From the NCBI GenBank assembly GCA_000004985.1, contig GG738849.1: a stretch of DNA of 64,000 nucleotides, one strand, 5' to 3'. The translations under genes were made by a program, and so were the position numbers. The stretch comes from Naegleria gruberi (taxonomy: Eukaryota). The notes beneath the pieces were generated by a model. It did no database searches and was not told the origin of the DNA. It worked only from the letters and a program-made list of their open reading frames with translations. Within the stretch, counting starts at the first letter, position 1. Each line of letters starts with the position of its first letter. This document shows, piece after piece, positions 5,290 through 55,640 of the stretch.

Positions 5290-8172
5290 ATGGGGATTTT
5301 TAAACCTCATTCTTCATCAGGCAACACGATAATACTGATAGGAGATGAAAGTTATTGGATTCCAACAATAAGATTGTGGTTGATGCCACTTCAATTACCA
5401 CCAGCACCACTTGAAAAAATGAACAGAAAACCAACCCTAAGAAAACGGGCCAAAAACGTCTCGTACTATGAAGGAAATAATCAAGTTATTTTAGAAGAAG
5501 ACGAAGAAGAAAATGAAGACGAAGTTGAAGAGGAAGAGGAGGAAGATGAAGCTGTTGTGGAGTTTGATGAAGAGGATGATGATGAAGAGATGGAGGCCTA
5601 TGTAGATTCTACAAAAGAGGAACAGATCAACAATACTAGTAGCAATAGTAGTAATAGTAGTGAATCTGATGAGGAACAAGTTCCGAAAAGAAAACAACCA
5701 TCACGGTCAAGAAATCAACCTAAAAGCCAATCCAAAAATCAATCAAAAGTTTCCAGTACTAGAAGAGGTTCATCTTCAAAGAAGATGGAAATATCAACCA
5801 CAACAAGTGAAAGTGACAATAACTATGAACCAACTAAAAAAACTAGGCAAACTCCAAAGAAGAAAATTACAAAATCCACCACCTCTGCCTCTAGAGGTTC
5901 GTCATCTTCTAATCGTTCCAAATCACCTTCTACTCAGACATCCTCAAGAAAGAGGAGAAAGGAGTCCGAAAGTGAGGAGCTCTCTGATAATGACGAAGAA
6001 ACCTATGATAGTGATAGTTTCATTGTAGACGATGAAAATGAATCAAGTGAGGAAAATAATGATGAGGAAGATAGTGAAGGTACTACAAAGAAGAGGAAAA
6101 CAAAAAAGACTTCAAAAACTTCTAGGAAATCGAGTAGCAATACTACTTCTAATGGCTCCTCGAATAGATCTCAATCAACAAGCCGATCTAAAACTGTCAA
6201 CTCCAAGAAGAAGAAAAAGTCACCCAACACTGTTCAGAATTTATTTGAAATATTTGCGATTGAGAAGGATACGATCGCAGAACAGAATAGGCAACGATCC
6301 AAGCTCATTAATGAATCCGAAAGTGAAGAAGAGGAAGAAGCCTACTCAACCAGTGATAATGAGGCACAAAAACAACAGAATAAGAAAACCTTTGCCGACT
6401 TGGAATTGGCACCTATTGTAGAACATGATGGACTCATTAATCCATATAACAAAAATAGGTGCGAACAAATTCCTCTTCCTCAACACAAACATTTGGATGA
6501 TGAACAATACGATAATTACATGAATGAGAATAATAACGAGTAAGTAGTTCTTTTCAATATGGAAAGATATTCTAACTTGAAATTTAGTCATTCTCTCGCA
6601 GTAGGAGTGAAGCTAACTGGAATGGACGAGTATGAAAGCTTAATACAAAGAAGAGTCAGACAAAGAAAGGAAGATGAAGGAATAGAGGAAGAGGAGGATG
6701 AAGTGCCAGCCAATTTACAGGATGAAAGTTACATATCCGAGCTCATAAAAATGTCTGTCGGAAAGCAAGCAAGTTACAAAATCAAACCATTCAAAGGAGG
6801 CCACTATATTAATTGTGACTTGAGATATTTTACCTTGTCCTCACTGGGTAAATTTGATGTAATATTAATTGATCCACCTTGGAGAGTTATTCAGAGTAGA
6901 CCACAGGAGGCCATGATGTTCAGTAATACCAACTTTAAACTAAATTATAACACTCTCTCATACGAGGAAATTATGGATATTAATGTGGGATCATTGTGTG
7001 ATCAGGGGTTCTGTTTCATGTGGGTTCTCAATTCATCTCTTCAATTTGGACTCAATTTACTGAATCATTGGGGATTTTCCTATATTGACAAGATTACCTG
7101 GATCAAAAAGACAAAGAATGATCAAATATTTGCAGGTACAGGTTATTATTTCCTTCACTCAACTGAATTACTGCTAGTTGGCGTAAAGCATGGCTCAACA
7201 AAGAAAAATGGGCAAAAGTTGCAATATATTTCCAAAATTACCAACGATATTCTCTTCTCAAAAGTTGGTATCCAATCCCAAAAACCAAACGAAGTATACG
7301 AGATTATCGAAAGCATGGTACCAGGAGCTAGAAAGATTGAAATATTTGCAAGAAATCACAACATTAGAAAAGGGTGGCTGAGTATTGGTAATAGATTGGG
7401 TGAAGCATTTGATAAGGAAATGACAAGCTATTCATGTCACAAGTGTGATAAGAATTTATTCTCACCTGACTTTATGGGAACTGATAAGAATATTAAGAGG
7501 TTTAAGAGCTGTAAAAATCCAAAGGTTAATCTCTGTGAAAAATGTTCATCTAAATTTTCAGAAGATTATGGGCCATATTTTATATTTGAGAATACTTGCA
7601 CAGAACCAATTTTCCACGATTGGTATTCTTGTGATGTTTGTGAGATGTATCCTATTTGTGGAGCTAGGTTTTCATGTAAAGATTGTTCAGGAGATTTTGA
7701 TGTTTGTGAGGATTGTTTTGATAAGGTCATGACAAAAGATTCACATGAACATAGATCAGATTCATTTACTGCAATTGAATATCCAGATCCTGGCTGTGGT
7801 TATGCAGTTCATGTTGATAAGAAATGTAGCTCTTGTCTGGCTTGTCCTATAATTGGTGAAAGATTTATGTGTACGGAGTGTAAGGATGTTAACTTATGTA
7901 GAAAGTGTTTCTTCCTTCAAAAAGAGCCCAAGACACACAAATGCACTCACGAAATTTCAATGATACCCGAGCCAAGACATGCCCACCAAAAACTCAAATG
8001 TGCTGGTTGTGGAACAGTGGGACTCCAAGCACCAATCCACAAATGCAAAACATGCATGTCTTTCATCCTTTGTAATAAGTGCTATGATGTCCATGAAACA
8101 TGTTATGACTCACTCAAGTTGGACAAGTTTACAACACACAAACAATTCCACTCATTTATGAGAATGAAATAA
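5290..8172 (+). CDS. MT-A70 family (DPPW) N6-adenine methyltransferase-like protein with four C-terminal ZZ-type zinc fingers. The model is two exons: 5290..6539 (acidic Ser/Lys-rich low-complexity region) and 6588..8172, with a 48-nt intron at 6540..6587. The alternative is two separate genes, 5290..6543 and 6559..8172.
   Basis: The catalytic motif ILIDPPW and surrounding MT-A70 fold are present. There are four C-x2-C..C-x2-C..H..H ZZ fingers (e.g. CDVCEMYPICGARFSCKDCSGDFDVCEDC). A GTAAGT donor overlaps the apparent stop of the upstream ORF. An AATTTAG acceptor 48 nt downstream joins in frame (..MNENNN-D-HSLAVGVKLTGMDEY..). Confidence 0.55.
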
Positions 8173-8177
8173 ATTAT

Positions 8178-10193
8178 TTAATGAAATGGATCGATATCAT
8201 AACCAACTAGACCTTTTTCTCTTAGCTTTCTCTCGTGCTCTCTTTCAACCTCTGAGTTTTGGTGTTGTTGAATTGATTGAGCGTTATCTGATTGAATATG
8301 ATCTAGCTTTTTTCTTTGCTTGGATTTCTCCTTACTATAGAATGCTTTATCCTTCTTGATTATTTGTTGTTTTCTTCTTTCTTGTTGTGTAGAGCTTAAA
8401 TGTGACGGAAGTTTAGTGAAAGGTTGGTTGCTTTGTTTCCATTCGTTATTGAGAGGAACTTCTTGTTGAGCTAGTTCATTCAATGTTTTTTGCATACTAT
8501 CATTGAATTCTTTTTTCAGATCTGTGGCAGTGTGCATAGAATCGATCTTTAGTAGTGTGCAAACCATTTCAACAGCTTGGTGAAGGCATTGAATCTTTAC
8601 TCGCATTGAATCCCAAACGCCTTTGACTTCTGGATGAATGAATCTAGCTGGAAATGAGCTAGTTTCTAGTGTTAGAATCTTTTCCTTCTTGATTTGATGC
8701 ATCCACGTTCGGAGAGTGGTACTCGTATTGAGCCCACTACTTTCACAAATCAGAAATGGTACTGAGGATTCCAATGCAAGTGAAAATTTTTCATAAATCA
8801 ATTGTTCAATAGGTGATAATTTGTTTGCTGTTTTTTTAAGGTGAGAGGAAAGCATCATTTCTAATGATCCTCCTCCAGGAGCAATTAGACAATCCTCGTA
8901 TGAATTTCTAATAATTTTCAAGGCACCCCTAATTAATCTAGAATATTGTTGATTGAGAACTCTGTTGGATGCTGAAACTATTATCGATCCGACAGTGTAT
9001 TTGTTTCCCTTAATGTGTATTATAGATTCTGGCTGTGCATGTCTTTGATCTTCCTTGATGGAAACAAACTCTGCATGTCCAATATAGTCTTCCTTGATGT
9101 AGTCGCAATCATAAATTTTTGTTGCACTCGTCATTTCACAAATTCTATCGAAAATATCTTGTCTCACGTGTCTGAGGGCAATAGTATTGTGCCTTGAGAA
9201 TTGGTTCAAGCTGGAATCATCTATGGCATTATTGGAAATTACAAAAGAGGGAGAGAATTTCAGTATCTTTTTTAACTTGTAATCTATTATTTCTCTCTCC
9301 TTTCTGAGAAGCTCTAGTCTCTCTTGTGCAGATTTGAATTCATTCTTCTTCTTTTCTTTCAACATTTCTAGTGGAATGTCACTTATTGCAATTACCTTAC
9401 AATCTTTCAGATATCGAGGCATGAACTGATTCTGCAATCCATGTTCAAATACAAGACCATCAATATATTCTACTCTAGAGCTTAGGGATACTTGTGAAAT
9501 GATATTGACATTGTGGAAATTCGGCAGTAATTGGATATTTTTCATTTGTTTAATAGAAAGACCATCGTATAAATCAAAGGACGCCTTCAGACAAATATTT
9601 ACAAGTTGAGAAATGATTTTTTCATCATTCAGTTTGGTTCTAAAGAAGGTTCTTACCAAATCATCTGATTTACGCTTGTCAATATGAATCTTTACATTCA
9701 AAATATCCTTATTACTCTTGATCGATGATAGGTCAAGGCTATTCCCATTCTCATCGACAAGAATATTGAGGGCAAACTTTTTCATTTCATCCACACATTT
9801 CTTACATATTTGAGTAAATGTTTCACAAACCAAATTGGTTTCAATAGTGTCATTATTAATCAAATCTTGTGCAACCTTCAATAATTCATTAAGAAGGCAC
9901 ACAACATTTATCGTTCCATCACCACATCCCATTTGAATTTGTTTAACCAATTTTACAATCATCAACCCGACTGGATGTTTAACATTTAAATTTTGAATAA
10001 TAAATCCACCCTCATTGCTTAAATATTGTTGAGTATTATTATCCCTTCCAATAATTGTTATTATTTTACCACTTGATTTAGGACCAAAACAATCAATCAC
10101 ATGATCATTAATTTGTCTAACAATATTCTCAACAATTCTACCAAATGATTGTTCCTTACCATGAGGAAGGCTTGCTATCTGTTGATGATTCAT
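8178..10193 (-). CDS. Divergent group-II chaperonin-like protein of the BBS chaperonin type (MKKS/BBS10/BBS12-like).
   Basis: Carries the TCP-1/CCT-like signatures GCGDGTINVV (GDGTT ATP-binding) and IAPGGGSLEM (VPGGGA). The rest is highly diverged, and the length of about 670-720 aa matches BBS10/BBS12. The probable ATG is at 10191..10193 (MNHQQIASL). The track ORF extends to 10352. Confidence 0.5.
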   Translation of the reverse strand: MNHQQIASLPHGKEQSFGRIVENIVRQINDHVIDCFGPKSSGKIITIIGRDNNTQQYLSNEGGFIIQNLNVKHPVGLMIVKLVKQIQMGCGDGTINVVCLLNELLKVAQDLINNDTIETNLVCETFTQICKKCVDEMKKFALNILVDENGNSLDLSSIKSNKDILNVKIHIDKRKSDDLVRTFFRTKLNDEKIISQLVNICLKASFDLYDGLSIKQMKNIQLLPNFHNVNIISQVSLSSRVEYIDGLVFEHGLQNQFMPRYLKDCKVIAISDIPLEMLKEKKKNEFKSAQERLELLRKEREIIDYKLKKILKFSPSFVISNNAIDDSSLNQFSRHNTIALRHVRQDIFDRICEMTSATKIYDCDYIKEDYIGHAEFVSIKEDQRHAQPESIIHIKGNKYTVGSIIVSASNRVLNQQYSRLIRGALKIIRNSYEDCLIAPGGGSLEMMLSSHLKKTANKLSPIEQLIYEKFSLALESSVPFLICESSGLNTSTTLRTWMHQIKKEKILTLETSSFPARFIHPEVKGVWDSMRVKIQCLHQAVEMVCTLLKIDSMHTATDLKKEFNDSMQKTLNELAQQEVPLNNEWKQSNQPFTKLPSHLSSTQQERRKQQIIKKDKAFYSKEKSKQRKKLDHIQSDNAQSIQQHQNSEVEREHERKLREKGLVGYDIDPFH

Positions 10194-10473
10194 GATGATG
10201 ATGATTTCATTCTCGCCTCCGATGTATATTCGTAAAATTTGTAATTGCTGTTGATGAGCAAAATTGAGGTTACGGATTGTTGAAGGTGTAGAGTTTCGGT
10301 TTTTTATTAATAATTTAAAAATCAAAAAAAATTCATTATTTAATAACATCATTTGTTATTCTAGAGAGGTTGATCACCACACCATACACTACGGAAGAGA
10401 TTTTCGATTAATACTTAAAATATATTCGGAGAGTCTACTTGTATTACTTGATCATTGTGTATGAAAAATAATT

Positions 10474-23452: not shown

Positions 23453-26400
23453 ATGGAAGGTGTGAGAGAGATTGAAGATGATATTTCATCATCATCGTCA
23501 TCTGTTGCAGAATTAGTTACGGATTTTCAATCAATTGGTAAAAATTTAATTCAAGATCATCAACAGTATGATGGGACATCAGATAATTTTCTGATGAGTT
23601 ATTCACTCTCATTTAGGAATGACAACACAACACAGGATTTGGAGGCTAATCTAAATCCGAAACGAGATGAAAATGAAAATAATAATAACACAAAGTGGAC
23701 ACCAACGGATAGGCCAATAGGAGCACAAATAGGATATAATCTTGAAGATGATGAATATTTATTGGTTGATGTTGGAGATAAAGGTGATTTATATACGAGT
23801 CAAACATTTATCAACTCTTCAGTAGTGACAACACCTAGACATGTGGCTTATCCATCCGTAATTCCAGAAAGTTCTGAAGTATTTTTTGATATTCCACATT
23901 ACAGTACGGATACAGTCAAGTTGGATCTCGATATTTTGGGAAGTGGCTCGGATATTCAAATAAGCTCTGTAATTGATAATTCAAAGGAGTATAAAAGTAT
24001 TGGAAGTTATTTGTATCCTACCAATAGTACTACCCCAACAGTAGATTTAGTTCCCCTTCTTCAGTCTCAAATAGGATTGGGATATGTAAATAATTTATTA
24101 CTGACAGAAGCTGATGTGTTGGATTATTTGGGGAAGCATACCTTTAGTATGGATCATGAATTTTACATAATGTGCTATGAATATTATCAATCCTTTTCAG
24201 AGTTGACCAGACTGAGATCTGAAATGGACCACCTACTCACTGAACAAGAAAATATCGAAAGAAATTTATTTATTTTAAATGAACAACAGATAAAATCTCC
24301 CATGTGTGATTGTGGGGATGGATACCAAGTACATGGTTATGTAAAGGCACTCACTGCCACTTTGGATCACAAGCAAAAGAGTAACCTGATCAAAAATCAA
24401 GAAAATCTGAGGAATCTCTATCACGACAAGATTGTAGAGGTAAACATGTTGAACAGATATTTCCATCTTAAAGTTTCCCGATATATTGGAGATATTATTC
24501 AAAACGAACCTCTATTTAACAATTATCTGAGGTACGAGCTTTACACCTTGTCGGTAGAAGATATGATGCACAAGCAGAATTTAAGAGTAGAACAAGACAT
24601 TGCTGCGGTTGATAGACTTAAAGTTGTCATTCAAATACTACTCTATTTCGAGCAAGTATCATGTGAAATTACAACTCTTCATGTTCCTAAAGGATTCTCT
24701 CCTGTTTCTGTAACCATCAGTGGGGAAAATATAGAAAATTTTAGGAAGGAAATTAGGGATTGGGCTTATCTATCAATTGCCTCGCTATTGAGGGTCTCAA
24801 CAGTGGAAGATAATAGGTTTTTAATCTTTGAAATTCTTAAATGCAAACATATTGGAAGTTGGGGGCAAACTTTCCTTCAATTTCCAGGAGTAGATTCTGA
24901 TCAAGCAATTGATACATTTTTGGCATTCCTTTCCCTCTTCTTAACACCAACATTTATAACTGAGAATGAACTAGTTTTGTCAGAAGAAGATTACTTGTCA
25001 TTGTGGACACAAGTTCCTCTTTTTGAAAGTATGGAATACATACTTTCCAAGTGTACTGAGCAATTTGGACTCAACCAAAGCAACTCTACCTTCTCCTCAT
25101 TTTCACAAGCCTTCTCCTTAATTGATACAGTGTTGTACATTTTCTATCAGGCTTTGAGCAATTTCAACAAATCTTCTAATCACAAATCATTTACTAGAAT
25201 GCTCTCTCAGAATATGGCAAGGCTCGTTCAAATGGCTTCCAACTCGCTTGCACAAATAGAAGGGACAAGTCAAGAAGATGTTGAATATCTGTTCAATTCC
25301 TTCTATGTAAAGTGTTTCAAAGGTTTACTTTCATCCTCATCGAGCTTGTGGTCCTTCCTTTCTGAGCTACCATATGAAATTATTTCAGAGCCTTGTGCAT
25401 GCTCGATATTTTGGATTATGTTTCGTGATGAACCTGTGATTGATCTCAAAATAACTTATGATATTTTGAGAGATTTTGATTCATGGCTCAAATTGGTCAC
25501 TGAAGATAAGAGTTTGAGAAATAATTTTATCACACTCTTCCAAAAACCAGAGTGTAGTTATTTATTTCCTGTAATGTCAAGATTGGGCTGTTCTCATTCA
25601 TACGGTCTCGCTGCCATTATAGTTCACGAGCTATTCTTGATTGGTTTCATTAATGAAACTTCTAGAGATACCTATTTTAGAGATGCTACAAAGAATATTG
25701 TTTCAATATGTGAGATACATCCCCGATTGATATCATTACTGCTTGCACTTGTTGTTAAATACTTAAAGTTTGTAGGAAGGTATTCCCTTACCATGTTTAA
25801 ACAACTTGATTTAAAGACGTGGAAATTATCCAAAACAAAAGACTTACCGCTATTGGAAGAGTTAATTCTCAAACCACTCAACTCTACGGAACATGAGCTT
25901 GCCAGATTCATCATAGATCATTTGGCTTGGAATGATTCTACAAAAAACAAGAACTTGACATTGGATGTGCAGAAGGATATACTTTTATTGATGGCAAGAA
26001 CAGTCTCAACACACAAGAAGGATTCACAATATTCCTTCGTTAAAAAGGATCCATGGATTGGTCTCGAGGAATGGTGTTGGTCTGTTGCTCAGAGGGTTAA
26101 AATCTATGACTCTGTCCAAACACCACTCATTCCTATTGAGTCGATTGAACATCCCTCTCTCAATGGACTTTTACATACGATTGAACTATCTGTGAAAAGT
26201 GGCTCAATAGATGGAGTTAGTATATATGCTGTTTTGGCCTTGAGTGATGTAGGCAACAATTTGGAAAAGTATAATGAATATTCATCTGGTTGGTTTGAAG
26301 CTATTGTTAACAACAAGACACAAGAAAGAGCAATCAGACTAATGTATGAAATCAGCATGAGGTTTTGTGAACAAGTCAAGTCTCAAAGCTCAGGAGTTCG

Positions 26401-29400
26401 TACGCCAACAAACCTCACATTCTATCCTCACATGGATAGTATTTTGTATTTGGATACCAAATCTTCATTCATTTCTAGATTGGTCAGCTCGAACAGATAT
26501 ATTGGTGATAATACTCAAAGTCTTTCTACATGCATTTGCAAAGGTATTCAGAGTTTACATGCCTCTGAGAAATTGAACAAGTTGAGAAGTTTTACTCTAT
26601 TTTGGGTAAATGAAATTACGAAAATTTCTAATTGGACCAATAATCCATGCTGCCTCTTCCTTATGAATCAAATTTCCAAAGTAATAATCCACTTGAATAT
26701 GATTAATGTTACAGGTATTTCAAATATCATTTCAACTCTACCTGAAATGGATATGTTTGCTCTCCAATCTTCTGGAATATTTACCTCTTCATCCACTGTA
26801 ATTACCACTTCTGCATTCAATAAGGACATTAATCCTCAGATTCAATATCCATATTTTTCTTTTATTTATTTGATTGGATTGTCGTTATCAGAGTTTCACA
26901 AACGTCAACAAGTTGCCAATTCTCTTTTCGAAATGAGAAATACTTTCCCAACTGCTGTAAAATCCTTTGAGGCAGTTAAATTCTGTATTTATAGAGTATT
27001 GGCATATTGTGTCAAGTTGACAGAGCAGCTATTGGATACCAGTCAATCACCAACAGATGTCACTAATATTCATTCCATTCTTCCAATGTACTGGCAATTA
27101 TTTTTCCACTTGTACTTTGAAAAGCAATTCACTCCAATGAATACTGTAAGATTTTTCGGCTATCAATTTCTTGAAATACCAACAAAGGAAAAGATTTTCA
27201 CATCAGTTCTCGACAGGTTAGAATCTCTAAAGAAATTCTACACAGAGACACAAAACACTAGTTTTACAACACGAGGAGAGTTGATTGACTTGTACTATGC
27301 AATGATATTATGGCTTAAAGGCACCAAAGATAACTTTTTATACTTTATTGATCAAATATCATCAATTAGCAAGTTTCATCAACCTGCCAGAATTGTTAGT
27401 TCAATTAATGATGACATTGCAAGAGATACTACCAAGTTATGGCATGATTTGATTGATAATATTAACATACAGGAACTTATTAGTAGTGAAGAAAAGAATT
27501 ATATTTCCTCTATTTATCCAACTTTTACTAGCCAATCAAGCACTCTGTCAATCAAAAGCCGATCTTTAGTATTTAATAACCAAAAGATTGATATAATCTT
27601 TTTAAAGCAGAAGGAAAAGGAAATAATGAAGTATTTACCATCTGTTACCATAACTCAGGAACCATTCCCACGAGGATTTATTCTCAATTTGAGTGATTTG
27701 AATGCTATGAAAATTACACAATCCATTGATATTTACCTCAAAGAAAAAGAAATGCAAAGAAGAGCAGACGAGGAATATATTTCCCTCATACCTTATCTCT
27801 ATTTTGAGGTAAAGAAGCAAGCCTCTCTTTCAGTTCCATGCTATAAGGAATTTTTCTGTAAAAGACCAGCCAATATTTACTTCTCCTATTCAGAATCAGT
27901 TAAAAATAATAATAATGAAACTAGAATGAAGGAAAATAGATCATTGGTTATGCGAATTATGGATTCTAAATATGTTGATCATTCACTTTGCAATTTATTG
28001 TATGAATTGGATGTAACTCTAAGAAATGTCAACTCTCAAGGGTTGGGTAGCAAACTTTTCTATGGTCTTTTGCAAATTCACTTTGTTATGTGTGATAGGT
28101 TTGTTCCTTTCAGAAAGATTATGAATCACATCGTATCACAATTTGCTTCCACATTTATAATGAATCAACCAACTGAGATGGAGAGTCTATTGATGAGTAT
28201 GGTTCAAAGTAATGCCTTGATATCTTTACTTTCTCCATTTTTTAATCCTTTACTTTGTCCAGAGTCTTGGGAACGATTCCTTGAAATCATTTTGAACAAG
28301 AAGAAGGAAAACCCTTCAAGTATGTCCCTTCAGATTTACAAAAACTTTGACATCCAAAAGTGGTTGGCATCGTTTTATAATATTGAAAATATTAAATCAC
28401 TGATGGCTCACTCAGTGAGAAATCTCAGAAATTGCAAGATGAATGAGGTAATTGCATTCTATCTTACACTTATACCTGCTTGCATCAATAGTTACCCTTC
28501 TAACTTGTTGGCATTTACATTCTCTCACATGTATTCGTGCATGTTAGAGCTTCCATACCAATTATTAGAATCCTGCAATGACACTATGAGTTTTGAGAAT
28601 TTTGATGATTCATTACTCTGTGATTTTATAGAAATTACCAGAGAATTCTTATGGAACGTCAGAAAAAAGCACAACAACACTCTTTACAATGCTTTGCCAA
28701 AGGAATATTTGAAGGAGATTGTAAGGTTGTTGGAGAAATTTGTTTGTTTTTCTCATCTCAGCAATAGTTTCCTCCAAGAAGGCCAAGTTTTTGAAAAAGT
28801 TTGCAGAGGATATGAAGCATTCATATTGCCAGTTCCAGCCAAAACTAATCTCTCAACATCTGGAGATGTGACAATTCTTCCCTTCCTTGATAATCAAGCT
28901 TCTATGGCATCTTCAGTTCTGGCAAGTTTCGTCAGATGCAATAAGCGTCTCTTGGAATCTAACAAGGGTATTCTCAATCAAGTTTGGAACATTTATTCAC
29001 AACTTATTTTCAATAACATTCTTGATCCAGACTGTCTAAACATGTATCATCAGGAATTGATGTATCTGGATTGGTCAAATTGGACAACAATTAATTTTGA
29101 ACAAATTTCACAAATGTGTGCCATTTTAGAAGTCTCTCCACAGAGAACAACCAAGACAATTTTGTCTGGTCACAGAATATTCGTCAAGAATATTATCAAG
29201 GTCATGTCTTGGAAGATTATTACAGATAATATCGTATTGTGTCATTTGAGTAGTGAAGATATTAGTAAGGTCTATTCGGATATTATTTCCTTGATGGTCT
29301 CCTCTATTCTCAAGTCTACAACACCACAAGTGGATGAAAGTTTGGCTGAATGTGTTGAAAAACTTTTCAATTTTAATATTGAATGGAATAGAATTACTGT

Positions 29401-30820
29401 GGAACATTTTTCAAATATTTTGAAACTCTATAGCAAGCTTTTTATTGAGGTTAAGAACTTTTCATACAATATTCCAAAAAGAAACCTCGATCTCTGCTTT
29501 TCAATTCTTCAAAATGTTTGTCAACCAAGAGAGTCAACAGCCAGCAATAGCTACCCTTCAGCTAACCAATACGATGATTATCCAAATGTAAATCCAAACT
29601 ATCAATCCAATAAGCCACTCACTCTCTACTATATTGATTTTATTATTAGTACTCTGGTTTATAGTTTTTCCTCCAAGCAAACTAGTCCTTCAGTAGTGGA
29701 TAATTATCTAGCAGAGCAAATTACACAACCTTTCGATTGGATTATTGATACAATGGCTCATTATTATGATTACAACTCGTGCACAGAACATTTTGTTCAA
29801 TTGCTAACTTTTACAGATCGTAACTATGCAGAATTTGATACTATTTTCCAATTTATTATTGAAAAGGCATTCCAACACCCAAGCAAATTGTCTATTTGTT
29901 TGTTCTCAGCTGCTCAATCGGTTAAAAATTATTTGAAATCTACGATATTAATGGAATTTGCTCTTAGATCTCATATTAGTCAACCTAATGTTTCTTTCAA
30001 TTATTTAACATCTATTCTATGGTTGCCACCACATGAAGCTCAAAGAAGACAGTTTGCATCTGCATGTATTGAGAAAGGTTGCTCATTGTTGTACTTTGTT
30101 CAAACTCTCAAAAGAATACAAGAAGAGCATGACACTCCACTGGTAATATTTGAAAAGATAATTGAGGAATTTATATTTAATTCCAATGTATTCTGTCCAG
30201 ATCAAGTGAATATTGTCTCACAAATCAAATCCTCCAACATGCTTCGACCAGAGCAATATCTCATTCCAATATGGTCACTCTATGTGAATGTTTTAATAGA
30301 AACGAGACCTGCATCATTCTCCAGTGTCATACCAATAACACAGGGCTATTATTTGAATTTATTACTAGATAAGAACCATAACAAGCTCCCTCCTCAACAG
30401 TACTATCCTGGAGTGGATGGAATATTGTCCCTCTCTAATCTCTTACTCACCATCAGTGAGGACAGAACAGTGGAGAGTACATTCGGCAAGTTAGTTTCCT
30501 TTTTCTCTAAAAAGAGTGACTTTGAGGTTTATAGAAATGATTTCAAATTCTTTTCCAGAGTTTTGGGAGTGTACTTGTTGAAATTCACTGCTAAATATCA
30601 TGTGAACGATCAAAAAGCCATTCAGGAATATCAAAAGTTGAAATCTACACTTGACAAGTACTTTACCAAAACTAGTGACACAAAGGAAAGAAATGCATTG
30701 GAAGTTTTGAACAATTACCTTAATTTATATGGAGAAACCAATTACTTGTTCGGATTTGTTTCCTTGATGGTTGAGCTGATAGGTATTCTTTTTGAATCTT
30801 CTACCTTTCCTAAGTTTTAA
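23453..30820 (+). CDS. Giant 2455-aa single-exon protein of unknown function, predicted alpha-helical repeat scaffold.
   Basis: An uninterrupted 7.4-kb ORF with coding-like composition throughout. I recognise no catalytic motifs, P-loop or TM segments. Confidence 0.6.
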   Translation: MEGVREIEDDISSSSSSVAELVTDFQSIGKNLIQDHQQYDGTSDNFLMSYSLSFRNDNTTQDLEANLNPKRDENENNNNTKWTPTDRPIGAQIGYNLEDDEYLLVDVGDKGDLYTSQTFINSSVVTTPRHVAYPSVIPESSEVFFDIPHYSTDTVKLDLDILGSGSDIQISSVIDNSKEYKSIGSYLYPTNSTTPTVDLVPLLQSQIGLGYVNNLLLTEADVLDYLGKHTFSMDHEFYIMCYEYYQSFSELTRLRSEMDHLLTEQENIERNLFILNEQQIKSPMCDCGDGYQVHGYVKALTATLDHKQKSNLIKNQENLRNLYHDKIVEVNMLNRYFHLKVSRYIGDIIQNEPLFNNYLRYELYTLSVEDMMHKQNLRVEQDIAAVDRLKVVIQILLYFEQVSCEITTLHVPKGFSPVSVTISGENIENFRKEIRDWAYLSIASLLRVSTVEDNRFLIFEILKCKHIGSWGQTFLQFPGVDSDQAIDTFLAFLSLFLTPTFITENELVLSEEDYLSLWTQVPLFESMEYILSKCTEQFGLNQSNSTFSSFSQAFSLIDTVLYIFYQALSNFNKSSNHKSFTRMLSQNMARLVQMASNSLAQIEGTSQEDVEYLFNSFYVKCFKGLLSSSSSLWSFLSELPYEIISEPCACSIFWIMFRDEPVIDLKITYDILRDFDSWLKLVTEDKSLRNNFITLFQKPECSYLFPVMSRLGCSHSYGLAAIIVHELFLIGFINETSRDTYFRDATKNIVSICEIHPRLISLLLALVVKYLKFVGRYSLTMFKQLDLKTWKLSKTKDLPLLEELILKPLNSTEHELARFIIDHLAWNDSTKNKNLTLDVQKDILLLMARTVSTHKKDSQYSFVKKDPWIGLEEWCWSVAQRVKIYDSVQTPLIPIESIEHPSLNGLLHTIELSVKSGSIDGVSIYAVLALSDVGNNLEKYNEYSSGWFEAIVNNKTQERAIRLMYEISMRFCEQVKSQSSGVRTPTNLTFYPHMDSILYLDTKSSFISRLVSSNRYIGDNTQSLSTCICKGIQSLHASEKLNKLRSFTLFWVNEITKISNWTNNPCCLFLMNQISKVIIHLNMINVTGISNIISTLPEMDMFALQSSGIFTSSSTVITTSAFNKDINPQIQYPYFSFIYLIGLSLSEFHKRQQVANSLFEMRNTFPTAVKSFEAVKFCIYRVLAYCVKLTEQLLDTSQSPTDVTNIHSILPMYWQLFFHLYFEKQFTPMNTVRFFGYQFLEIPTKEKIFTSVLDRLESLKKFYTETQNTSFTTRGELIDLYYAMILWLKGTKDNFLYFIDQISSISKFHQPARIVSSINDDIARDTTKLWHDLIDNINIQELISSEEKNYISSIYPTFTSQSSTLSIKSRSLVFNNQKIDIIFLKQKEKEIMKYLPSVTITQEPFPRGFILNLSDLNAMKITQSIDIYLKEKEMQRRADEEYISLIPYLYFEVKKQASLSVPCYKEFFCKRPANIYFSYSESVKNNNNETRMKENRSLVMRIMDSKYVDHSLCNLLYELDVTLRNVNSQGLGSKLFYGLLQIHFVMCDRFVPFRKIMNHIVSQFASTFIMNQPTEMESLLMSMVQSNALISLLSPFFNPLLCPESWERFLEIILNKKKENPSSMSLQIYKNFDIQKWLASFYNIENIKSLMAHSVRNLRNCKMNEVIAFYLTLIPACINSYPSNLLAFTFSHMYSCMLELPYQLLESCNDTMSFENFDDSLLCDFIEITREFLWNVRKKHNNTLYNALPKEYLKEIVRLLEKFVCFSHLSNSFLQEGQVFEKVCRGYEAFILPVPAKTNLSTSGDVTILPFLDNQASMASSVLASFVRCNKRLLESNKGILNQVWNIYSQLIFNNILDPDCLNMYHQELMYLDWSNWTTINFEQISQMCAILEVSPQRTTKTILSGHRIFVKNIIKVMSWKIITDNIVLCHLSSEDISKVYSDIISLMVSSILKSTTPQVDESLAECVEKLFNFNIEWNRITVEHFSNILKLYSKLFIEVKNFSYNIPKRNLDLCFSILQNVCQPRESTASNSYPSANQYDDYPNVNPNYQSNKPLTLYYIDFIISTLVYSFSSKQTSPSVVDNYLAEQITQPFDWIIDTMAHYYDYNSCTEHFVQLLTFTDRNYAEFDTIFQFIIEKAFQHPSKLSICLFSAAQSVKNYLKSTILMEFALRSHISQPNVSFNYLTSILWLPPHEAQRRQFASACIEKGCSLLYFVQTLKRIQEEHDTPLVIFEKIIEEFIFNSNVFCPDQVNIVSQIKSSNMLRPEQYLIPIWSLYVNVLIETRPASFSSVIPITQGYYLNLLLDKNHNKLPPQQYYPGVDGILSLSNLLLTISEDRTVESTFGKLVSFFSKKSDFEVYRNDFKFFSRVLGVYLLKFTAKYHVNDQKAIQEYQKLKSTLDKYFTKTSDTKERNALEVLNNYLNLYGETNYLFGFVSLMVELIGILFESSTFPKF

Positions 30821-30853
30821 ATGGTTTACAAATATTCTGTGAAGATAAATGGT

Positions 30854-33800
30854 TTACAGAGCCAAATGAATAGTTTGAATAATGCCAGAGTTGATATCTG
30901 AGGTTACTTTTCTTGAGGCCATTTGCAAAATGTGAGCATTACCTGTACTTGTTAGGTTGTTTCTTTCAAGAGTAATAAAGTGAATAGCATCATAGTTTTC
31001 TGTTGAAATACCTTCTCCCAAGTATTCTGCTCCTTTATCAGTAATCATATTAGATTCCAAATCAATAAATCCCAATACTGCATTATCTTTCATCTTTTTC
31101 ATATACTCTGACAAAAATAATACACCAGCATCTGTAATGTCATTATTTCTAATGGAGAGTGAAGTCAGAGTATGGTTATTCTCATAGAGTGAATCTACTA
31201 CTTCCTTCAAACCTAAATCACCCACCTTGTTATAATTCAAAACTAGGCATGTAATGGATGTATTATACTCTAATAATTTGCGTAAATAAACACCAGATCT
31301 TGGAGTAAAGTGATTTCCTGATAAGTTCAAATGATAAATATTCGAAGGTTTTCTATTTCCTATCTTGTCCAATAGAATTGAATTGTCACTGAATAATAAT
31401 GATAAATCATCATCACCCAATGAACAATTTCTCAAATCTACACAAATTAAACTCTGTAATAAATTTTCAAACACACAATTCAATGAAACTAGGGAAGTGT
31501 TGGCATTGAATAAGTTAGAATGTGGATAAAAAGTGGAAATAACGCTTCTCATCTCTTCACAGTAATCAAAATCTCCAAGAACATTACCGCTAATAAGGAA
31601 ATGCGATATTGGTTTCTTTGTGAACTTTTCAAATGTCTCCATTGCCTTATCTTTCAATGAGCAATCACTAATTTCAAGCCACCACGATCCACAATTTAAA
31701 TCTTGATATTCACTTGTGTCTCTTGCATACAACTTAGTTGTCAAATCAACAATTGAATCGGAGAGCATATCAGGATTATTGCTCATATTCAATCTGGATA
31801 AGCTTGTATTTCTCTCAATGGATTTCATCAAGTGGCGAGCACTGAGATAGGTTATTCTATTGTTTGTCAAGTCCAAATTTATGAGAGTGTCATTGAATTC
31901 ACCAACATTTCTTTCCAATGTTGGTTCATTAGTATTCTTAAATATTTGATCAGTTGGTGAGAAGGCGTTTGCAAATGCCAAAGCTCCCAAATCACCAATG
32001 TAATTTGACTTTAAATTAAGATAGGTCAAGGTTTGATTAGTTCTCAATGCCTCAGCAAGAGAAAAGCCTCCCAACTCTCCAACCTTGTTCTTTTGCAAGT
32101 CCAAATAAGTTAGTGTTTGATTCTTCTTTAGAACTTGTGCCAGACAGATGGCTCCTTTCTCAGTAATTAAATTTCTACCAATTGTAAGAATGAGAATAGA
32201 GCTTGAATTCATTAAACCTCTAGACAAGTATTCTACACCCAAATCTCCTAAATTATTATAGTCGAGAGCTAGTTTGGTAATTTCAAAAGGTCTGTTCTTG
32301 ATTGGTATCTCTGAGACTTGATATAAAAAGTTAGACAAGTGAATGGTACCTTCAGGGTACATTTCTACACTGCTCAAATCAAGAGAAAACGGAACAGGAA
32401 ACTCTGCTCTTTTAGCATTTTGAACACTCTCTATCATGTCACTAAAAACAAATCCTAAATCATCGGATTTTGAGGTCTGTCTACAATCAATACTGAATCC
32501 ATATCTTTCACCTGCTGAGCATTCAAGAGATTTTCTTATAACATAATTTGCGCCCACACTTTGGATAGGATTCAAACGGAAGGAGATTGAAGTCAAGGAC
32601 TTGTTATGTTCCAAAGTGTCAATAATGATTTTGGCACCTTTAGCACCAATAGAATTCCAACGTAAATCCAAAGTTTGGAGAATGCACTTTTCACTCAGCA
32701 AATACTTGGCAATGGCTGGAGCAGATTTATCAGTCAGGAAACAAGCCCCAACGTCAATCAGAGTCAAGTTAGAACATGACTCCAATATTTGGAACAATTC
32801 TATGGCTCCCTTATCTTCAATTCTACAACCTCTGATATCAATTTCTTGCAAGTATGTAATATTTACATGAGGAAGGGCTAAACTCTTTACAATTCCTTCC
32901 CAACCCTGATATGAGAATCTTCTTCCCTTGATTCTAATATTTTCCAAATAGACTTGTCTATCTTTAACATTTGAATAGTAATCATAAATGTAATCTCCCA
33001 TGATTTTTTCGTGAATTTCTCTACCAAAAACAACACCAGTGGTTGATGAGTAGACTCTAATCTTTTCCTCCTCACTCACAATTGAATCGCTCAATTGTTG
33101 AATATCTATATTGTTCAACCTTTGTTTATAATCTACTGTTCTCGGTTCAATGGATTTTGTCAATTCGTCAAAATTCAATTGTTCAAACTTGGTAAGGGTT
33201 GGTTTGGCAAGATCAGTCAGCCTATTCCACTGTTCTGATGGTGTGAATAAATAATTATCAAGTGTGTACATGAGAGATTCTTGAGAAGTTACCAAATGTG
33301 AAGCTCTTCCACGAGTGATTAAACTTTTTTGAATGTGTCTCAAACCGTCATCTTTGGAAACAATGAAAATCCTAGTGTGTAAATCTGTGATACGATGTAA
33401 TGCACCAGCAATGGCTCCTAGTAAATAATCAGCAGCATCCTTGAACTTTTTAAAGTATCCCTTATCATAAAAATCAAATAAATACTTTTCAAATGAATTC
33501 ATTCCACTCAAATTCTGTTCCGACAATCTGATCTTTACAAAGTGTAGACTGGAACCACGTTCACGAAGTACCTCCTCACTCACCTTGATAGAAGTTGAAT
33601 ATTTTGGACCTGCTACACCTATTAAAAGACAATCCTTTCCATAATCAAAGTTCCTCTCCTTGAGTAAAAAGATTGACTGGCCCACATTATCCAAATCAAG
33701 AAGAATAATATTCTTAAATCTTCCATATGGATTTTCATGTTTCTTCTCATTGAAATGCAAGTCCAGAATGTCCTTTGTGTACCAATTTGGTTCAAATGCA

Positions 33801-34801
33801 TTATAGTAACCCCAGACAAAGTATCTCACATTGTCAAGACATGCCTTGTTCATGAAAAATCCACCCCTCTTTACAAAAACCTCCTCAGATATTGTGGAAA
33901 GTGCTGAATCATCAGTTGGAGGTTTCTTTTGTTTCTTTGCTTCTTTCAATAGTTTGTTTCTGATTCGTTTCAATTCCTTCTTGCTCTTCTTTTCTCCCAC
34001 TGTCGAATCCGTTGTTGATGAAGAATCAATAGAAATGTTATCCGATTCTAAAGGTTGTTGTTGTTGATCAGTTGAATTCAATCCCTCTTCTTGTTGAACA
34101 AGATTCAATGGAACAGGTTGAGGATTTTCCTGTTGTTGATTTTGTTGTTGTTGATTTTCTAAGTCCTGTTGTAATAATTGTTGTGTAGCAAGTTTTTGTT
34201 TGACATACTTTTCAACTCCTGGAAATTCCTTCTTCTTTGTTGGAATTGAACTAAATGTTTCAAAATCAACAAATTCATACAATCTCCACCATAATTCCTC
34301 ACAATATAATTTCCACAAACAATCAATATTGGAAACTTTACAAATTTCAAATAATTTATCCATTCTATCACCATCATTTAATATTTCTAAAATTCTTGTT
34401 CGGAAATCAGAGTTATCATCACACTGATCAATTTGACAATAATCAGTGAATAATTTCCTTGCTTCTATCCAAATGGTAGGAATATCCTTTTTGTGAAAAC
34501 ATTTCTTTTCCTTGAAAACTCTAGTGATTGTATAGGTCAAAATTTGTCCAATCTTTTTAATGTATTCTTCATCGAGAATTATTTCTTGATCATCATCGGA
34601 TATGAATTGTGAAAGTAAAAAGGCTTGATTTAATTCCTGTCTTGCAAGGTACATTGACGGAAATCTGCAACATGTTAAATTTAATAACTCAACTAGCAGT
34701 TTTATTCCATTTGATGATGTGTCTTCATCTTGACTGTTCAGAGTTGTAGTAGTAGATAAATTACCACTATATTGATCACCTTGTTGAGAGAGTTCTGACA
34801 T
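30854..34801 (-). CDS. 1315-aa protein with a central NYN/PIN-like nuclease-like region and extensive C-terminal ribonuclease-inhibitor-type LRRs.
   Basis: About 20 RNI-like LRRs (L..L.L..N.IGD.G...LA.AL). In the central region, IILLDLDNVGQS, AADYLLGAIAG and IFIVSKDDGLRH resemble the acidic-residue pattern of the NYN/PIN-like fold (WD.EN .. D..L .. S.D). No P-loop or NACHT found. The N-terminus has a Q-rich low-complexity stretch. Confidence 0.5.
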   Translation of the reverse strand: MSELSQQGDQYSGNLSTTTTLNSQDEDTSSNGIKLLVELLNLTCCRFPSMYLARQELNQAFLLSQFISDDDQEIILDEEYIKKIGQILTYTITRVFKEKKCFHKKDIPTIWIEARKLFTDYCQIDQCDDNSDFRTRILEILNDGDRMDKLFEICKVSNIDCLWKLYCEELWWRLYEFVDFETFSSIPTKKKEFPGVEKYVKQKLATQQLLQQDLENQQQQNQQQENPQPVPLNLVQQEEGLNSTDQQQQPLESDNISIDSSSTTDSTVGEKKSKKELKRIRNKLLKEAKKQKKPPTDDSALSTISEEVFVKRGGFFMNKACLDNVRYFVWGYYNAFEPNWYTKDILDLHFNEKKHENPYGRFKNIILLDLDNVGQSIFLLKERNFDYGKDCLLIGVAGPKYSTSIKVSEEVLRERGSSLHFVKIRLSEQNLSGMNSFEKYLFDFYDKGYFKKFKDAADYLLGAIAGALHRITDLHTRIFIVSKDDGLRHIQKSLITRGRASHLVTSQESLMYTLDNYLFTPSEQWNRLTDLAKPTLTKFEQLNFDELTKSIEPRTVDYKQRLNNIDIQQLSDSIVSEEEKIRVYSSTTGVVFGREIHEKIMGDYIYDYYSNVKDRQVYLENIRIKGRRFSYQGWEGIVKSLALPHVNITYLQEIDIRGCRIEDKGAIELFQILESCSNLTLIDVGACFLTDKSAPAIAKYLLSEKCILQTLDLRWNSIGAKGAKIIIDTLEHNKSLTSISFRLNPIQSVGANYVIRKSLECSAGERYGFSIDCRQTSKSDDLGFVFSDMIESVQNAKRAEFPVPFSLDLSSVEMYPEGTIHLSNFLYQVSEIPIKNRPFEITKLALDYNNLGDLGVEYLSRGLMNSSSILILTIGRNLITEKGAICLAQVLKKNQTLTYLDLQKNKVGELGGFSLAEALRTNQTLTYLNLKSNYIGDLGALAFANAFSPTDQIFKNTNEPTLERNVGEFNDTLINLDLTNNRITYLSARHLMKSIERNTSLSRLNMSNNPDMLSDSIVDLTTKLYARDTSEYQDLNCGSWWLEISDCSLKDKAMETFEKFTKKPISHFLISGNVLGDFDYCEEMRSVISTFYPHSNLFNANTSLVSLNCVFENLLQSLICVDLRNCSLGDDDLSLLFSDNSILLDKIGNRKPSNIYHLNLSGNHFTPRSGVYLRKLLEYNTSITCLVLNYNKVGDLGLKEVVDSLYENNHTLTSLSIRNNDITDAGVLFLSEYMKKMKDNAVLGFIDLESNMITDKGAEYLGEGISTENYDAIHFITLERNNLTSTGNAHILQMASRKVTSDINSGIIQTIHLAL

Positions 34802-34866
34802 TTTTTTTAAATTGTTTACATTTCAAAAGTGCACCTTCTCTCTTCCAAAACTTTTGTAAACATGGT

Positions 34867-54126: not shown

Positions 54127-55632
54127 ATGTCATCACCCCAATTAGAAAATTACAAGTTTCAAGTATTTAAAGGACACACTGGTTTGCCAACATGTGAATA
54201 TTTTGCCAGAGAACAATCCACCAATGAACAAGTTATTAATTTCCTCTCCACAAAATTAAATGATAGAAAATTAGCAGAAGAATTGGATCAATCCGATACT
54301 CTTGCTCACATGAGAAATGAATTCAACTATCCAGATATGATTCCAAAGGAATTAATTTGTCAAGTTGATGAAAACTCCTCTGATGAATGTGTGGAAAAGA
54401 AAATTATTTATTTCTGTGGTAATTCACTTGGACTTCAACCAAAGTGCCTTTCAAAGAATATTGAAAAGGAATTACAAAAGTGGGCACATATTGGTGTTGA
54501 AGGACATTTCAGTGCATCGTTTGGAACTAACAAATGGTTTGAAGTTGAAGAATCTGTGAAGAATGCAATGGCTAAGGTTGTTGGAGCTAAACCAATTGAA
54601 GTTACTGTTATGAATAGTTTAACTGCTAATTTACAAGTTTTACTCACTTCTTTCTATAGACCAACTGCACAAAAATACAAGATTTTAGTTGAACAATATC
54701 CATTCCCAAGTGATATGCATGCTGTGACCTCTCATGTCAGATGCAGAATTGAAGAATTGAGAAGTATGTTGGGAAGTCATTTGTCAAGTGATGAAATTGT
54801 TGAAAAGTGTATCACTCTTGTTGGTCCAAGAGAAGGAGAAGAAATTATTAGATCTGAAGATATTGTGGAATGTTTAAAGAGTGATTCCTCTATTGCACTT
54901 TCACTTGTTGGAGGAGTTCAATTCATGACTGGTCAATGTTTTGATATGAAAACTATTGCACAAACTTGTCAAGAGTTGGATATTGTTTGTGGATTTGATT
55001 TGGCACATGCTGCTGGTAATATTGATTTGAGACTTCATGATTGGGGAGTTGATTTTGCATGTTGGTGTTCTTACAAGTATTTGAATAGTGGACCAGGTGG
55101 AATTAGTGGAATTTTTGTACATGAAAAACATTCAAATGAAACTATGGAACAAAGACCAAGATTTATGGGTTGGTGGGCAAGAGAAAAGGCAACTCGTTTT
55201 TCACTTTCGACCAAGTTTGAACCTCAACCAGGTGCAGCTGGATTCCAAATGTCGAATCCTTGCATTTTAAGTATGACTGCTATTCTTTCGAGTTTGAGAG
55301 TTTTTGAAATGGCTGAAAAAGATGGCCAAATAATGAGCGTTTTGAGAAGCAAATCTAATTTGTTAACTACTTATTTAGAATTGCTCATTAGACAAGAGTT
55401 GAGTGACAAGATCTTTATCCTCACACCATCAAATCCAAATGCTAGAGGTTGTCAATTATCTATTAGAGTTTTGCACAAGAATTTGGACTATGTTGATTCT
55501 GAACTCAAGAAGAGAGGAGTCATTATTGACATTAGAGAGCCAGATATTATCAGAGTATCTCCAACACCTCTCTATAATCAATTTGTTGAAGTTTATGATT
55601 TTGTTCAACTTTTGAAAGAAATTTTGAATTAA
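54127..55632 (+). CDS. KYNU: Kynureninase (PLP-dependent).
   Basis: IYFCGNSLGLQPK, the aminotransferase class V fold and a PLP-lysine region (CSYKYLNSGPGG). The length is appropriate. Confidence 0.85.
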   Translation: MSSPQLENYKFQVFKGHTGLPTCEYFAREQSTNEQVINFLSTKLNDRKLAEELDQSDTLAHMRNEFNYPDMIPKELICQVDENSSDECVEKKIIYFCGNSLGLQPKCLSKNIEKELQKWAHIGVEGHFSASFGTNKWFEVEESVKNAMAKVVGAKPIEVTVMNSLTANLQVLLTSFYRPTAQKYKILVEQYPFPSDMHAVTSHVRCRIEELRSMLGSHLSSDEIVEKCITLVGPREGEEIIRSEDIVECLKSDSSIALSLVGGVQFMTGQCFDMKTIAQTCQELDIVCGFDLAHAAGNIDLRLHDWGVDFACWCSYKYLNSGPGGISGIFVHEKHSNETMEQRPRFMGWWAREKATRFSLSTKFEPQPGAAGFQMSNPCILSMTAILSSLRVFEMAEKDGQIMSVLRSKSNLLTTYLELLIRQELSDKIFILTPSNPNARGCQLSIRVLHKNLDYVDSELKKRGVIIDIREPDIIRVSPTPLYNQFVEVYDFVQLLKEILN

Positions 55633-55640
55633 ATAATTTA

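What the first reader, a model, noticed from the sequence alone, without database searches (positions are those of the whole stretch)
8165..8185. Convergent genes whose stop codons are 5 nt apart
The MT-A70/ZZ gene ends with TAA at 8170..8172. The chaperonin-like gene on the opposite strand ends with its stop at 8178..8180. The 3' UTRs must therefore overlap as antisense transcripts, or polyadenylation occurs inside the partner's coding region.
Basis: seen in the sequence. Interest (0 to 1): 0.5.

Follow-up and report, generated by a model that had tools for sequence, protein, structure and literature searches.

The report
Back-to-back gene ends in Naegleria
Two real, conserved genes of the amoeba Naegleria gruberi on opposite strands do stop five bases apart, so their mRNA tails almost certainly run into each other's coding sequence, but this is the normal tight packing of this compact genome and not an oddity.

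Summary
Confirmed and ordinary. The window is Naegleria gruberi nuclear DNA. The + strand MT-A70/ZZ gene stops at TAA 8170-8172. The - strand chaperonin-like gene (NAEGRDRAFT_46249) stops at 8178-8180. The spacer is ATTAT. Both protein tails are conserved up to the stop codon in four or five heterolobosean species, so a hidden terminal intron is excluded. Each stop codon lies inside a poly(A) hexamer: AATAAA at 8168-8173 on +, and ATTAAA on - at 8177-8182. Such "dual-use" stops are already published for N. gruberi (median 3' UTR 22 nt; 39 nt genome-wide; signal 15-20 nt before cleavage). Inference: each mRNA ends about 5-10 codons inside its partner's coding sequence, and the mature tails overlap by about 40-75 nt. 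No RNA data could be examined here. Tight spacing is common: convergent ORF gaps in this window are 5, 8, 33, 90, 91, 104, 109 and 236 nt. Willaertia magna has the same pair 1 nt apart. No hairpin or known RNA family was found at the junction. Side finding: the MT-A70 ORF is probably exon 2 of a 944-aa gene, joined to ORF 5290..6543 by a 48-nt intron.

The parts
5290..6539 (+). Probable exon 1 of the MT-A70/ZZ gene, acidic and Ser/Lys-rich. The exact start codon was not determined.
   Evidence: The ORF list shows ORF 5290..6543 ending 15 nt before the MT-A70 ORF. A homologous upstream ORF is fused to MT-A70 in the annotated 1037-aa N. lovaniensis model.
6540..6587 (+). Predicted 48-nt spliceosomal intron, GTAAGT...TTCTAAC...TTTAG. 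It contains the apparent stop of ORF 5290..6543 and the apparent ATG of the MT-A70 ORF.
   Evidence: Removing it joins the two ORFs in frame into 944 aa. GTAAGTA is conserved at the same place in N. lovaniensis and Naegleria sp. L006. The homologous 109-nt intron reproduces the 1037-aa N. lovaniensis model exactly. This is inferred; there is no RNA evidence.
6588..8172 (+). Exon 2 of the MT-A70/ZZ gene: MT-A70 domain with DPPW, C-terminal ZZ fingers, and the stop TAA at 8170-8172.
   Evidence: Pfam MT-A70 2.8e-36 and ZZ 5.5e-12. Orthologues at 79% (Naegleria sp.) and 67% (W. magna) identity. The C-terminus is conserved to the stop.
8168..8173 (+). AATAAA hexamer overlapping the MT-A70 stop codon, a candidate dual-use stop and poly(A) signal.
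   Evidence: It is the only AATAAA within 8100-8260. The same AATAAA overlap is present in Naegleria sp. L006. Dual-use AAUAAA stops are documented in N. gruberi (PMC11529991).
8173..8177 (.). 5-nt spacer ATTAT between the two stop codons.
8170..8180 (.). Palindrome TAAAT-T-ATTTA, formed by the two stop codons each followed by AT.
   Evidence: The pattern TAAATNATTTA matches 3 times in the window, against 0.56 expected by chance. Two of the three matches are at convergent ORF junctions, 8170 and 55630.
8177..8182 (-). ATTAAA hexamer (TTTAAT on +) overlapping the chaperonin-like gene's stop codon. It is a candidate dual-use signal and a weaker variant.
   Evidence: AUUAAA was among the hexamers analysed for N. 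gruberi but is more typical of coding regions (PMC11529991).
8178..10193 (-). Chaperonin-like gene NAEGRDRAFT_46249 (XP_002681864.1, 671 aa), a divergent group II chaperonin paralogue with a C-terminal extension of about 115 aa. Its stop is at 8178-8180.
   Evidence: 100% identity to the NCBI N. gruberi protein. Pfam Cpn60_TCP1 5.2e-77. The tail is conserved to the stop in 5 species.
8139..8211 (.). Inferred zone of mRNA 3'-end overlap: 8156-8194 if both UTRs are 22 nt, 8139-8211 if both are 39 nt.
   Evidence: Computed from published N. gruberi medians. Not measured at this locus.

Best explanation
This is ordinary genome compaction in Naegleria gruberi. Two functional convergent genes have lost almost all intergenic DNA, and each uses its own stop codon as part of its poly(A) signal. 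The genes are an AMT2/5-like MT-A70/ZZ methyltransferase and a divergent CCT-like chaperonin. The signals are AAUAAA for MT-A70 and AUUAAA for the chaperonin. Cleavage 15-20 nt downstream of the signal would place each mRNA's 3' end about 5-10 codons inside the partner's coding sequence, so the mature mRNAs would have complementary tails of roughly 40-75 nt. The U-rich sequence just downstream of each hexamer (UUAUUU on both strands) comes from the spacer plus the antisense of the partner's stop codon and last codons. Shown here: the stop positions, the reality and conservation of both gene ends, the hexamers, and the frequency of tight pairs. Inferred: the cleavage sites and the overlap. No special regulatory function is needed to explain the arrangement.
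For: The organism is identified and the stop coordinates are confirmed. Both C-termini are conserved to the stop in 4-5 species. AATAAA at 8168-8173 and ATTAAA(-) at 8177-8182 are the only such hexamers within 8100-8260, and TTATTT follows immediately downstream on both strands. Published N. gruberi direct-RNA data give AAUAAA as the top signal, placed 15-20 nt before cleavage. The median 3' UTR is 39 nt. About 11-13% of stops overlap AAUAAA, and those have a median UTR of 22 nt. U-rich elements lie downstream (PMC11529991). In this window 9 of 30 ORF stops overlap AWTAAA. Convergent gaps in the window are 5, 8, 33, 90, 91, 104, 109 and 236 nt. The same gene pair is 1 nt apart in W. magna and 63 nt apart in another Naegleria. 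There is no stable RNA fold (z = +0.69), no long inverted repeat and no Rfam family at the junction.
Against: No transcript or poly(A)-site data for either gene could be examined, because the paper's supplementary tables are not held. Neither strand has the UGUA upstream element within about 70 nt of its stop. AUUAAA is reported as more typical of coding regions in N. gruberi, so the chaperonin may use another signal further inside the MT-A70 coding sequence, which would make the overlap longer rather than absent. The MT-A70 protein is not among the NCBI N. gruberi proteins in the searched collection, so its expression is undocumented. The W. magna junction has no canonical hexamer over either stop. 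Within the window, dual-use hexamers are no more frequent at tight pairs (3 of 6 ends) than at loose ones (4 of 10 ends).
Confidence: 0.8

Rival explanations
1. Ultrashort or absent 3' UTRs: both mRNAs are cleaved within the 5-nt spacer or at the stop codon, so the mature transcripts do not overlap.
For: N. gruberi has very short UTRs in general (median 39 nt), and some protists go to extremes.
Against: The signal-to-cleavage distance in N. gruberi is 15-20 nt. Cleavage in the spacer would need a hexamer near 8150-8158 on + or 8192-8200 on -, and no AATAAA or ATTAAA is there. Dual-use stops in N. gruberi still give UTRs of about 22 nt.
Confidence: 0.05
2. One ORF does not really end there, because of an unrecognised terminal intron, a pseudogene or a spurious ORF, so the 5-nt spacing is an artefact of ORF reading.
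For: N. gruberi genes do contain introns, and the MT-A70 gene probably has one at 6540-6587.
Against: Both protein tails align residue for residue to the stop in 4-5 species separated by 33-60% protein divergence. Both have strong Pfam domains. The annotated N. gruberi chaperonin model ends at the same stop.
Confidence: 0.02
3. The overlap is used for regulation. Complementary mRNA tails form duplexes, or convergent polymerases interfere, so the methyltransferase and the chaperonin are expressed reciprocally or feed dsRNA into RNAi.
For: The tail-to-tail adjacency of this pair is kept in N. gruberi, an uncultured Naegleria and Willaertia. In yeasts, convergent genes with short intergenic distance form mRNA duplexes with post-transcriptional effects, and 3' UTR overlap mediates interference (PMC6993858 and PMC3900390; abstracts).
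Against: The spacing is not conserved: 1, 5 and 63 nt. N. lovaniensis and N. fowleri have a whole extra gene between the two. More distant MT-A70/ZZ relatives have other neighbours. Tight convergent pairs are frequent among unrelated genes in the window. There are no expression or small-RNA data.
Confidence: 0.1

Closest known systems
Dual-use stop codon / poly(A) signals in compact protist genomes (Giardia, Spironucleus, N. gruberi; PMC11529991)
   Same: The stop codon is embedded in the AAUAAA or AUUAAA hexamer. The organism and the signal are the same as those characterised by nanopore direct RNA sequencing. Very short 3' UTRs are expected.
   Different: Here two such signals sit back to back on opposite strands, 3 nt apart (8168-8173 and 8177-8182). 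The parts of the paper that I read (sections 4-6 and searched passages) do not discuss convergent pairs, and its UTR tables could not be checked for these genes.
Convergent gene pairs with overlapping 3' UTRs in Saccharomyces cerevisiae (PMC3900390; PMC6993858)
   Same: The arrangement is tail to tail, with partly complementary mRNA 3' ends. It is common genome-wide: over 20% of yeast genes, per the abstract.
   Different: In yeast the stops are usually separated by an intergenic region that holds the overlapping UTRs. Here the spacer is 5 nt, so the overlap must lie in coding sequence. Functional consequences are shown in yeast and untested here.
Arabidopsis convergent pairs sharing a common polyadenylation region (PMC3032780)
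   Same: Sense and antisense transcripts of a convergent pair are processed within one shared region.
   Different: The plant cases involve long overlaps and larger intergenic regions, not dual-use stop codons.

Membership tests
Tail-to-tail cis-natural antisense pair (convergent genes with overlapping 3' ends) | Two genuine genes on opposite strands converge | tested here: met
   Pfam domains on both. Orthologues with intact ORFs in 4-5 species.
Tail-to-tail cis-natural antisense pair (convergent genes with overlapping 3' ends) | Mature transcripts overlap at their 3' ends | not testable with these tools
   No RNA data are available. The overlap is inferred from a 5-nt spacer against published 22-39 nt UTR medians.
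Dual-use stop codon / poly(A) signal | AAUAAA or AUUAAA hexamer overlapping the stop codon | tested here: met
   AATAAA at 8168-8173 over TAA 8170-8172. ATTAAA(-) at 8177-8182 over the stop at 8178-8180.
Dual-use stop codon / poly(A) signal | Cleavage about 15-20 nt downstream of that hexamer, giving a 3' UTR of about 22 nt | not testable with these tools
   This needs poly(A)-site mapping. The supplementary UTR tables of PMC11529991 are not held.
Dual-use stop codon / poly(A) signal | N. gruberi auxiliary elements: UGUA upstream and a U-rich element downstream | tested here: inconclusive
   There is no TGTA within about 70 nt upstream on either strand. TTATTT lies directly downstream on both strands.
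Overlapping genes (coding sequences overlap) | The coding regions share nucleotides | tested here: not met
   The stops are separated by 5 non-coding nt.
MT-A70 methyltransferases, AMT2/5 clade | MT-A70 domain with the catalytic DPPW motif plus C-terminal ZZ zinc fingers | tested here: met
   Pfam MT-A70 over residues 99-278. The translation contains ILIDPPWRV. ZZ is matched twice. This architecture is described as peculiar to AMT2/5 (PMC12695648).
MT-A70 methyltransferases, AMT2/5 clade | Phylogenetic placement within AMT2/5 | not tested
   No tree was built. Source names of homologues vary (IME4, METTL3).
Group II chaperonins (CCT/thermosome) | Full-length Cpn60_TCP1 domain | tested here: met
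   Pfam 5.2e-77, profile positions 2-485 of 490.
Group II chaperonins (CCT/thermosome) | Orthology to one of the eight canonical CCT subunits | tested here: inconclusive
   The best PDB matches are about equal for an ancestral group II chaperonin, thermosome and CCT gamma and zeta (1e-35 to 1e-30). Only heterolobosean homologues were returned.

The most novel reading that the evidence does not exclude
The 15-nt core AATAAATTATTTAAT (8168-8182) may be a minimal bidirectional 3'-end module. Two stop codons and two poly(A) hexamers are packed into a palindrome, and each gene's downstream U-rich element is encoded by the antisense of its partner's stop and last codons. The two C-termini would then be co-constrained. 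The resulting 40-75 nt complementary mRNA tails would couple expression of a 6mA-type methyltransferase and a divergent chaperonin. The same 11-nt palindrome recurs at a second convergent junction (55630-55640), which hints at a preferred configuration.
Probability: 0.08. Interest if true: 0.45.

Novelty: already known. Interest (0 to 1): 0.15.

Why it matters
It matters mainly for annotation. In N. gruberi, and in Heterolobosea generally, gene ends can abut to within 1-8 nt. Gene finders and UTR annotators that forbid transcript overlap will therefore mis-model such loci. The MT-A70/ZZ gene here appears to be missing from the reference protein set, and it is split into two ORFs by a 48-nt intron. 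The locus is a convenient test case for how the cleavage and polyadenylation machinery finds sites when all downstream information lies in the antisense of another gene's coding sequence. It does not open a new question.

Tried and rejected
1. Terminal intron or false ORF end: rejected, because both C-termini are conserved.
2. Hidden structured element or terminator hairpin at the junction: rejected. The RNA fold z-score is +0.69, the longest local inverted repeat is the 9-nt AT-rich one, and Rfam gives only a sub-threshold chance hit at 7716-7747.
3. Direct transcript evidence: none obtained.
   - Exact-protein look-ups for the N. gruberi chaperonin found no contig.
   - The contigs that carry the MT-A70 ORF are unspliced DNA from metagenomes.
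   - The junction 26-mer is absent from JGI metagenome contigs.
   - Supplementary UTR tables of PMC11529991 are not held.
4. Conservation of the tight spacing as a sign of function: not supported. The spacing is 1, 5 and 63 nt, a gene is inserted in N. lovaniensis and N. fowleri, and more distant relatives have other neighbours.
5. Enrichment of dual-use hexamers at tight pairs compared with loose pairs in the window: none, 3 of 6 ends against 4 of 10.
6. Confirming the partner ORF of the second tight pair (55641..56783) by homology: no homologue at all, so that example rests on ORF length only.
7. Literature on Naegleria convergent or antisense transcripts: nothing specific found.
Full report
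**Observation.** The + strand at 8160-8190 reads GAGAATGAAA-TAA-ATTAT-TTA-ATGAAATGGA.
- ORF 6559..8172 (+, 537 aa) ends with TAA at 8170-8172.
- ORF 8178..10352 (-) ends with TAA, which reads TTA on + at 8178-8180.
- Five bases (ATTAT, 8173-8177) separate the stops.
- Pfam confirms both labels: MT-A70 (2.8e-36) plus ZZ (5.5e-12) for the + gene, and Cpn60_TCP1 (5.2e-77) for the - gene.

**Source.** The chaperonin-like protein is 100% identical to the NCBI protein XP_002681864.1 / NAEGRDRAFT_46249 of Naegleria gruberi. That model is 671 aa and starts at the ATG at 10193. The window is 32-37% G+C and is packed with long ORFs. This is a compact eukaryotic genome with few introns.

I fetched orthologous loci from four sources: N. 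lovaniensis (L002), N. fowleri (L003), Willaertia magna (L004) and an uncultured Naegleria from a metagenome (L006).
- The chaperonin tail ...E(R/H)ERKL(R/K)E(K/R)GL(L/V/I)GY..(D/E)PF(H/Q/E)* aligns to the stop in all five sequences.
- The MT-A70 tail ...THK(Q/P)FH(S/A)F(M/Y)(R/K)MK* ends at the same residue in N. gruberi, L006, N. lovaniensis and W. magna.
- Both ends are therefore real, and both genes are under purifying selection.

**Is 5 nt unusual?** It is not.
- Among ORFs of at least 150 aa in the window there are eight convergent junctions, with gaps of 5, 8, 33, 90, 91, 104, 109 and 236 nt.
- The 8-nt case pairs a kynureninase (Pfam KYNU_C reaching residue 496 of 501) with a 380-aa ORF that has no homologue. 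That case is therefore supported at ORF level only.
- In W. magna the same MT-A70/chaperonin pair is 1 nt apart (TAA-C-CTA), and another W. magna pair is 19 nt apart.
- In Naegleria sp. L006 the pair is 63 nt apart.
- In N. lovaniensis, and by sequence similarity in N. fowleri, an extra 359-366-aa gene lies between the two genes, 40 nt from the chaperonin stop.
- A more distant MT-A70/ZZ relative has a different convergent neighbour 22 nt away.
- Tight tail-to-tail packing is thus a general property of these genomes. The exact spacing at this pair is not conserved.

**Anatomy of the junction.**
- The MT-A70 stop is embedded in AATAAA (8168-8173).
- The chaperonin stop is embedded in ATTAAA on the minus strand (8177-8182).
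- These are the only AWTAAA hexamers on the relevant strands within 8100-8260.
- The two stops with their following AT form the palindrome TAAAT-T-ATTTA (8170-8180).
- TAAATNATTTA occurs three times in the window against 0.56 expected. Two of the three are at convergent junctions, 8170 and 55630. The numbers are small.
- TTATTT lies directly downstream of each hexamer on its own strand. A GU-rich run (UGUUUGUGUGUUGU) lies 33-46 nt past the chaperonin stop. It is the antisense of the MT-A70 codons for TTHKQ.
- Neither strand has a UGUA element within about 70 nt upstream of its stop.
- There is no stable fold (z = +0.69), no long inverted repeat and no Rfam match above threshold.

**What is known for this organism.** A nanopore direct-RNA study of N. 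gruberi (Genome Res 2024, PMC11529991) reports the following:
[quoted passage not shown] - About 11-13% of stop codons overlap AAUAAA, and these "dual-use" stops have a median 3' UTR of 22 nt.
- UGUA is enriched upstream and U-rich sequence downstream.
- AUUAAA is more typical of coding regions.

In the window, 9 of 30 ORF stops overlap AWTAAA, 5 of them AATAAA. This is in line with the published figure.

**Mechanism (inferred).**
- Each gene uses its stop codon as part of its poly(A) signal.
- With 22-nt UTRs, the MT-A70 mRNA would end near 8194 and the chaperonin mRNA near 8156, giving a 39-nt overlap that covers about 5 codons of each partner.
- With 39-nt UTRs, the ends would be near 8211 and 8139, giving a 73-nt overlap.
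- The only escape from overlap is cleavage inside the 5-nt spacer. That would need hexamers 15-20 nt upstream inside the coding sequences, and none are there.
I could not examine any RNA data for these genes.
- Overlapping convergent 3' ends are well documented elsewhere. Examples are over 20% of S. cerevisiae genes (PMC3900390), mRNA duplexes at short intergenic distances (PMC6993858) and shared poly(A) regions in Arabidopsis (PMC3032780) (abstracts).

**Rivals.**
- Ultrashort UTRs with no overlap: 0.05.
- A false gene end: 0.02, contradicted by the conserved C-termini.
- A regulatory use of the overlap, through duplexes, interference or RNAi: 0.1. It is not excluded, but the variable spacing, the inserted gene in N. 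lovaniensis and N. fowleri, and the generality of tight pairs all argue against it.

**Side findings.**
1. The MT-A70 ORF is almost certainly exon 2 of a longer gene.
   - ORF 5290..6543 ends in GA|GTAAGTAG.
   - A 48-nt intron at 6540-6587 (GTAAGT...TTCTAAC...TTTAG) joins it in frame to the MT-A70 ORF, giving 944 aa.
   - GTAAGTA is conserved at this point in N. lovaniensis and in L006.
   - The homologous 109-nt intron reproduces the annotated 1037-aa N. lovaniensis model exactly.
   - The apparent ATG at 6559 lies inside the intron.
2. No NCBI N. gruberi protein matched this gene in the searched collection, so it may be missing from the reference gene set.
3. An MT-A70 domain with C-terminal ZZ fingers is the architecture described as peculiar to the AMT2/5 clade of 6mA methyltransferases (PMC12695648). 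I did not test the phylogenetic placement.
4. The chaperonin-like protein is a divergent group II chaperonin, equidistant from thermosome and CCT gamma and zeta. Its Lys-rich C-terminal extension of about 115 aa is conserved in Heterolobosea.

**Verdict.** The feature is a routine consequence of genome compaction in N. gruberi, and the underlying mechanism, dual-use stop and poly(A) signals with very short UTRs, is already published for this organism. Interest is low (0.15). The novelty class is "already known".

Noticed in passing
window 5290-8172 (intron 6540-6587): ORF 5290..6543 and the MT-A70 ORF 6559..8172, 15 nt apart, are probably one gene. A 48-nt intron (GTAAGT...TTCTAAC...TTTAG) joins them in frame into 944 aa. 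The 5' splice site GTAAGTA is conserved in N. lovaniensis, where one 1037-aa model is annotated, and in Naegleria sp. L006.
   Followed up: yes
window 6559-8172: The MT-A70/ZZ protein has no NCBI N. gruberi counterpart in the protein collection. The only identical copies come from a metagenome run, ERR1078381. The gene may be missing from the reference annotation. Its MT-A70 plus C-terminal ZZ architecture is the one described for the AMT2/5 clade of 6mA DNA methyltransferases (PMC12695648).
   Followed up: partly
window 55627-55645: There is a second very tight convergent junction. Kynureninase (54127..55632, stop inside ATTAAA) and ORF 55641..56783 are 8 nt apart. The minus ORF ends with tandem stops TGA TAA. 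The same palindrome type, TAAATAATTTA, sits at 55630-55640. The 380-aa partner ORF has no homologue in 5.8 billion proteins.
   Followed up: partly
window 30818-30858: At the convergent pair 23453..30820 / 30854..34801 (33-nt gap), a 13-nt direct repeat TAAATGGTTTACA occurs twice, at 30818 and 30846. The first copy carries the + gene's stop and the second carries the - gene's stop. On the minus strand it reads UGUAAA over the stop.
   Followed up: no
L002 8147-9247; L003 8110-8397: N. lovaniensis has an extra 359-366-aa gene with no Pfam domain between the chaperonin-like gene and MT-A70. N. fowleri appears to have it too, by sequence similarity. N. gruberi, Naegleria sp. L006 and Willaertia lack it. 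This points to an insertion in the fowleri/lovaniensis lineage or to losses elsewhere.
   Followed up: partly
window 8178-10193 (-): The chaperonin-like protein NAEGRDRAFT_46249 is not clearly any of CCT1-8. Its E-values to thermosome and to CCT gamma and zeta are similar, and only heterolobosean homologues were returned. It carries a conserved Lys-rich C-terminal extension of about 115 aa that ends in GYxxxPF.
   Followed up: partly
window 30854-36435, 37238-39246, 43533-48554: Several same-strand ORF pairs are only 56-66 nt apart: 34801/34867, 38140/38197 and 46907/46974. As with the 5290/6559 pair, some may be exons of one gene separated by a short intron rather than separate genes.
   Followed up: no
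window 7716-7747 (+): A sub-threshold Rfam hit to Mu-gpT-DE (22.6 bits against a gathering score of 49, E = 0.034) lies inside the MT-A70 coding region. It is almost certainly chance.
   Followed up: no
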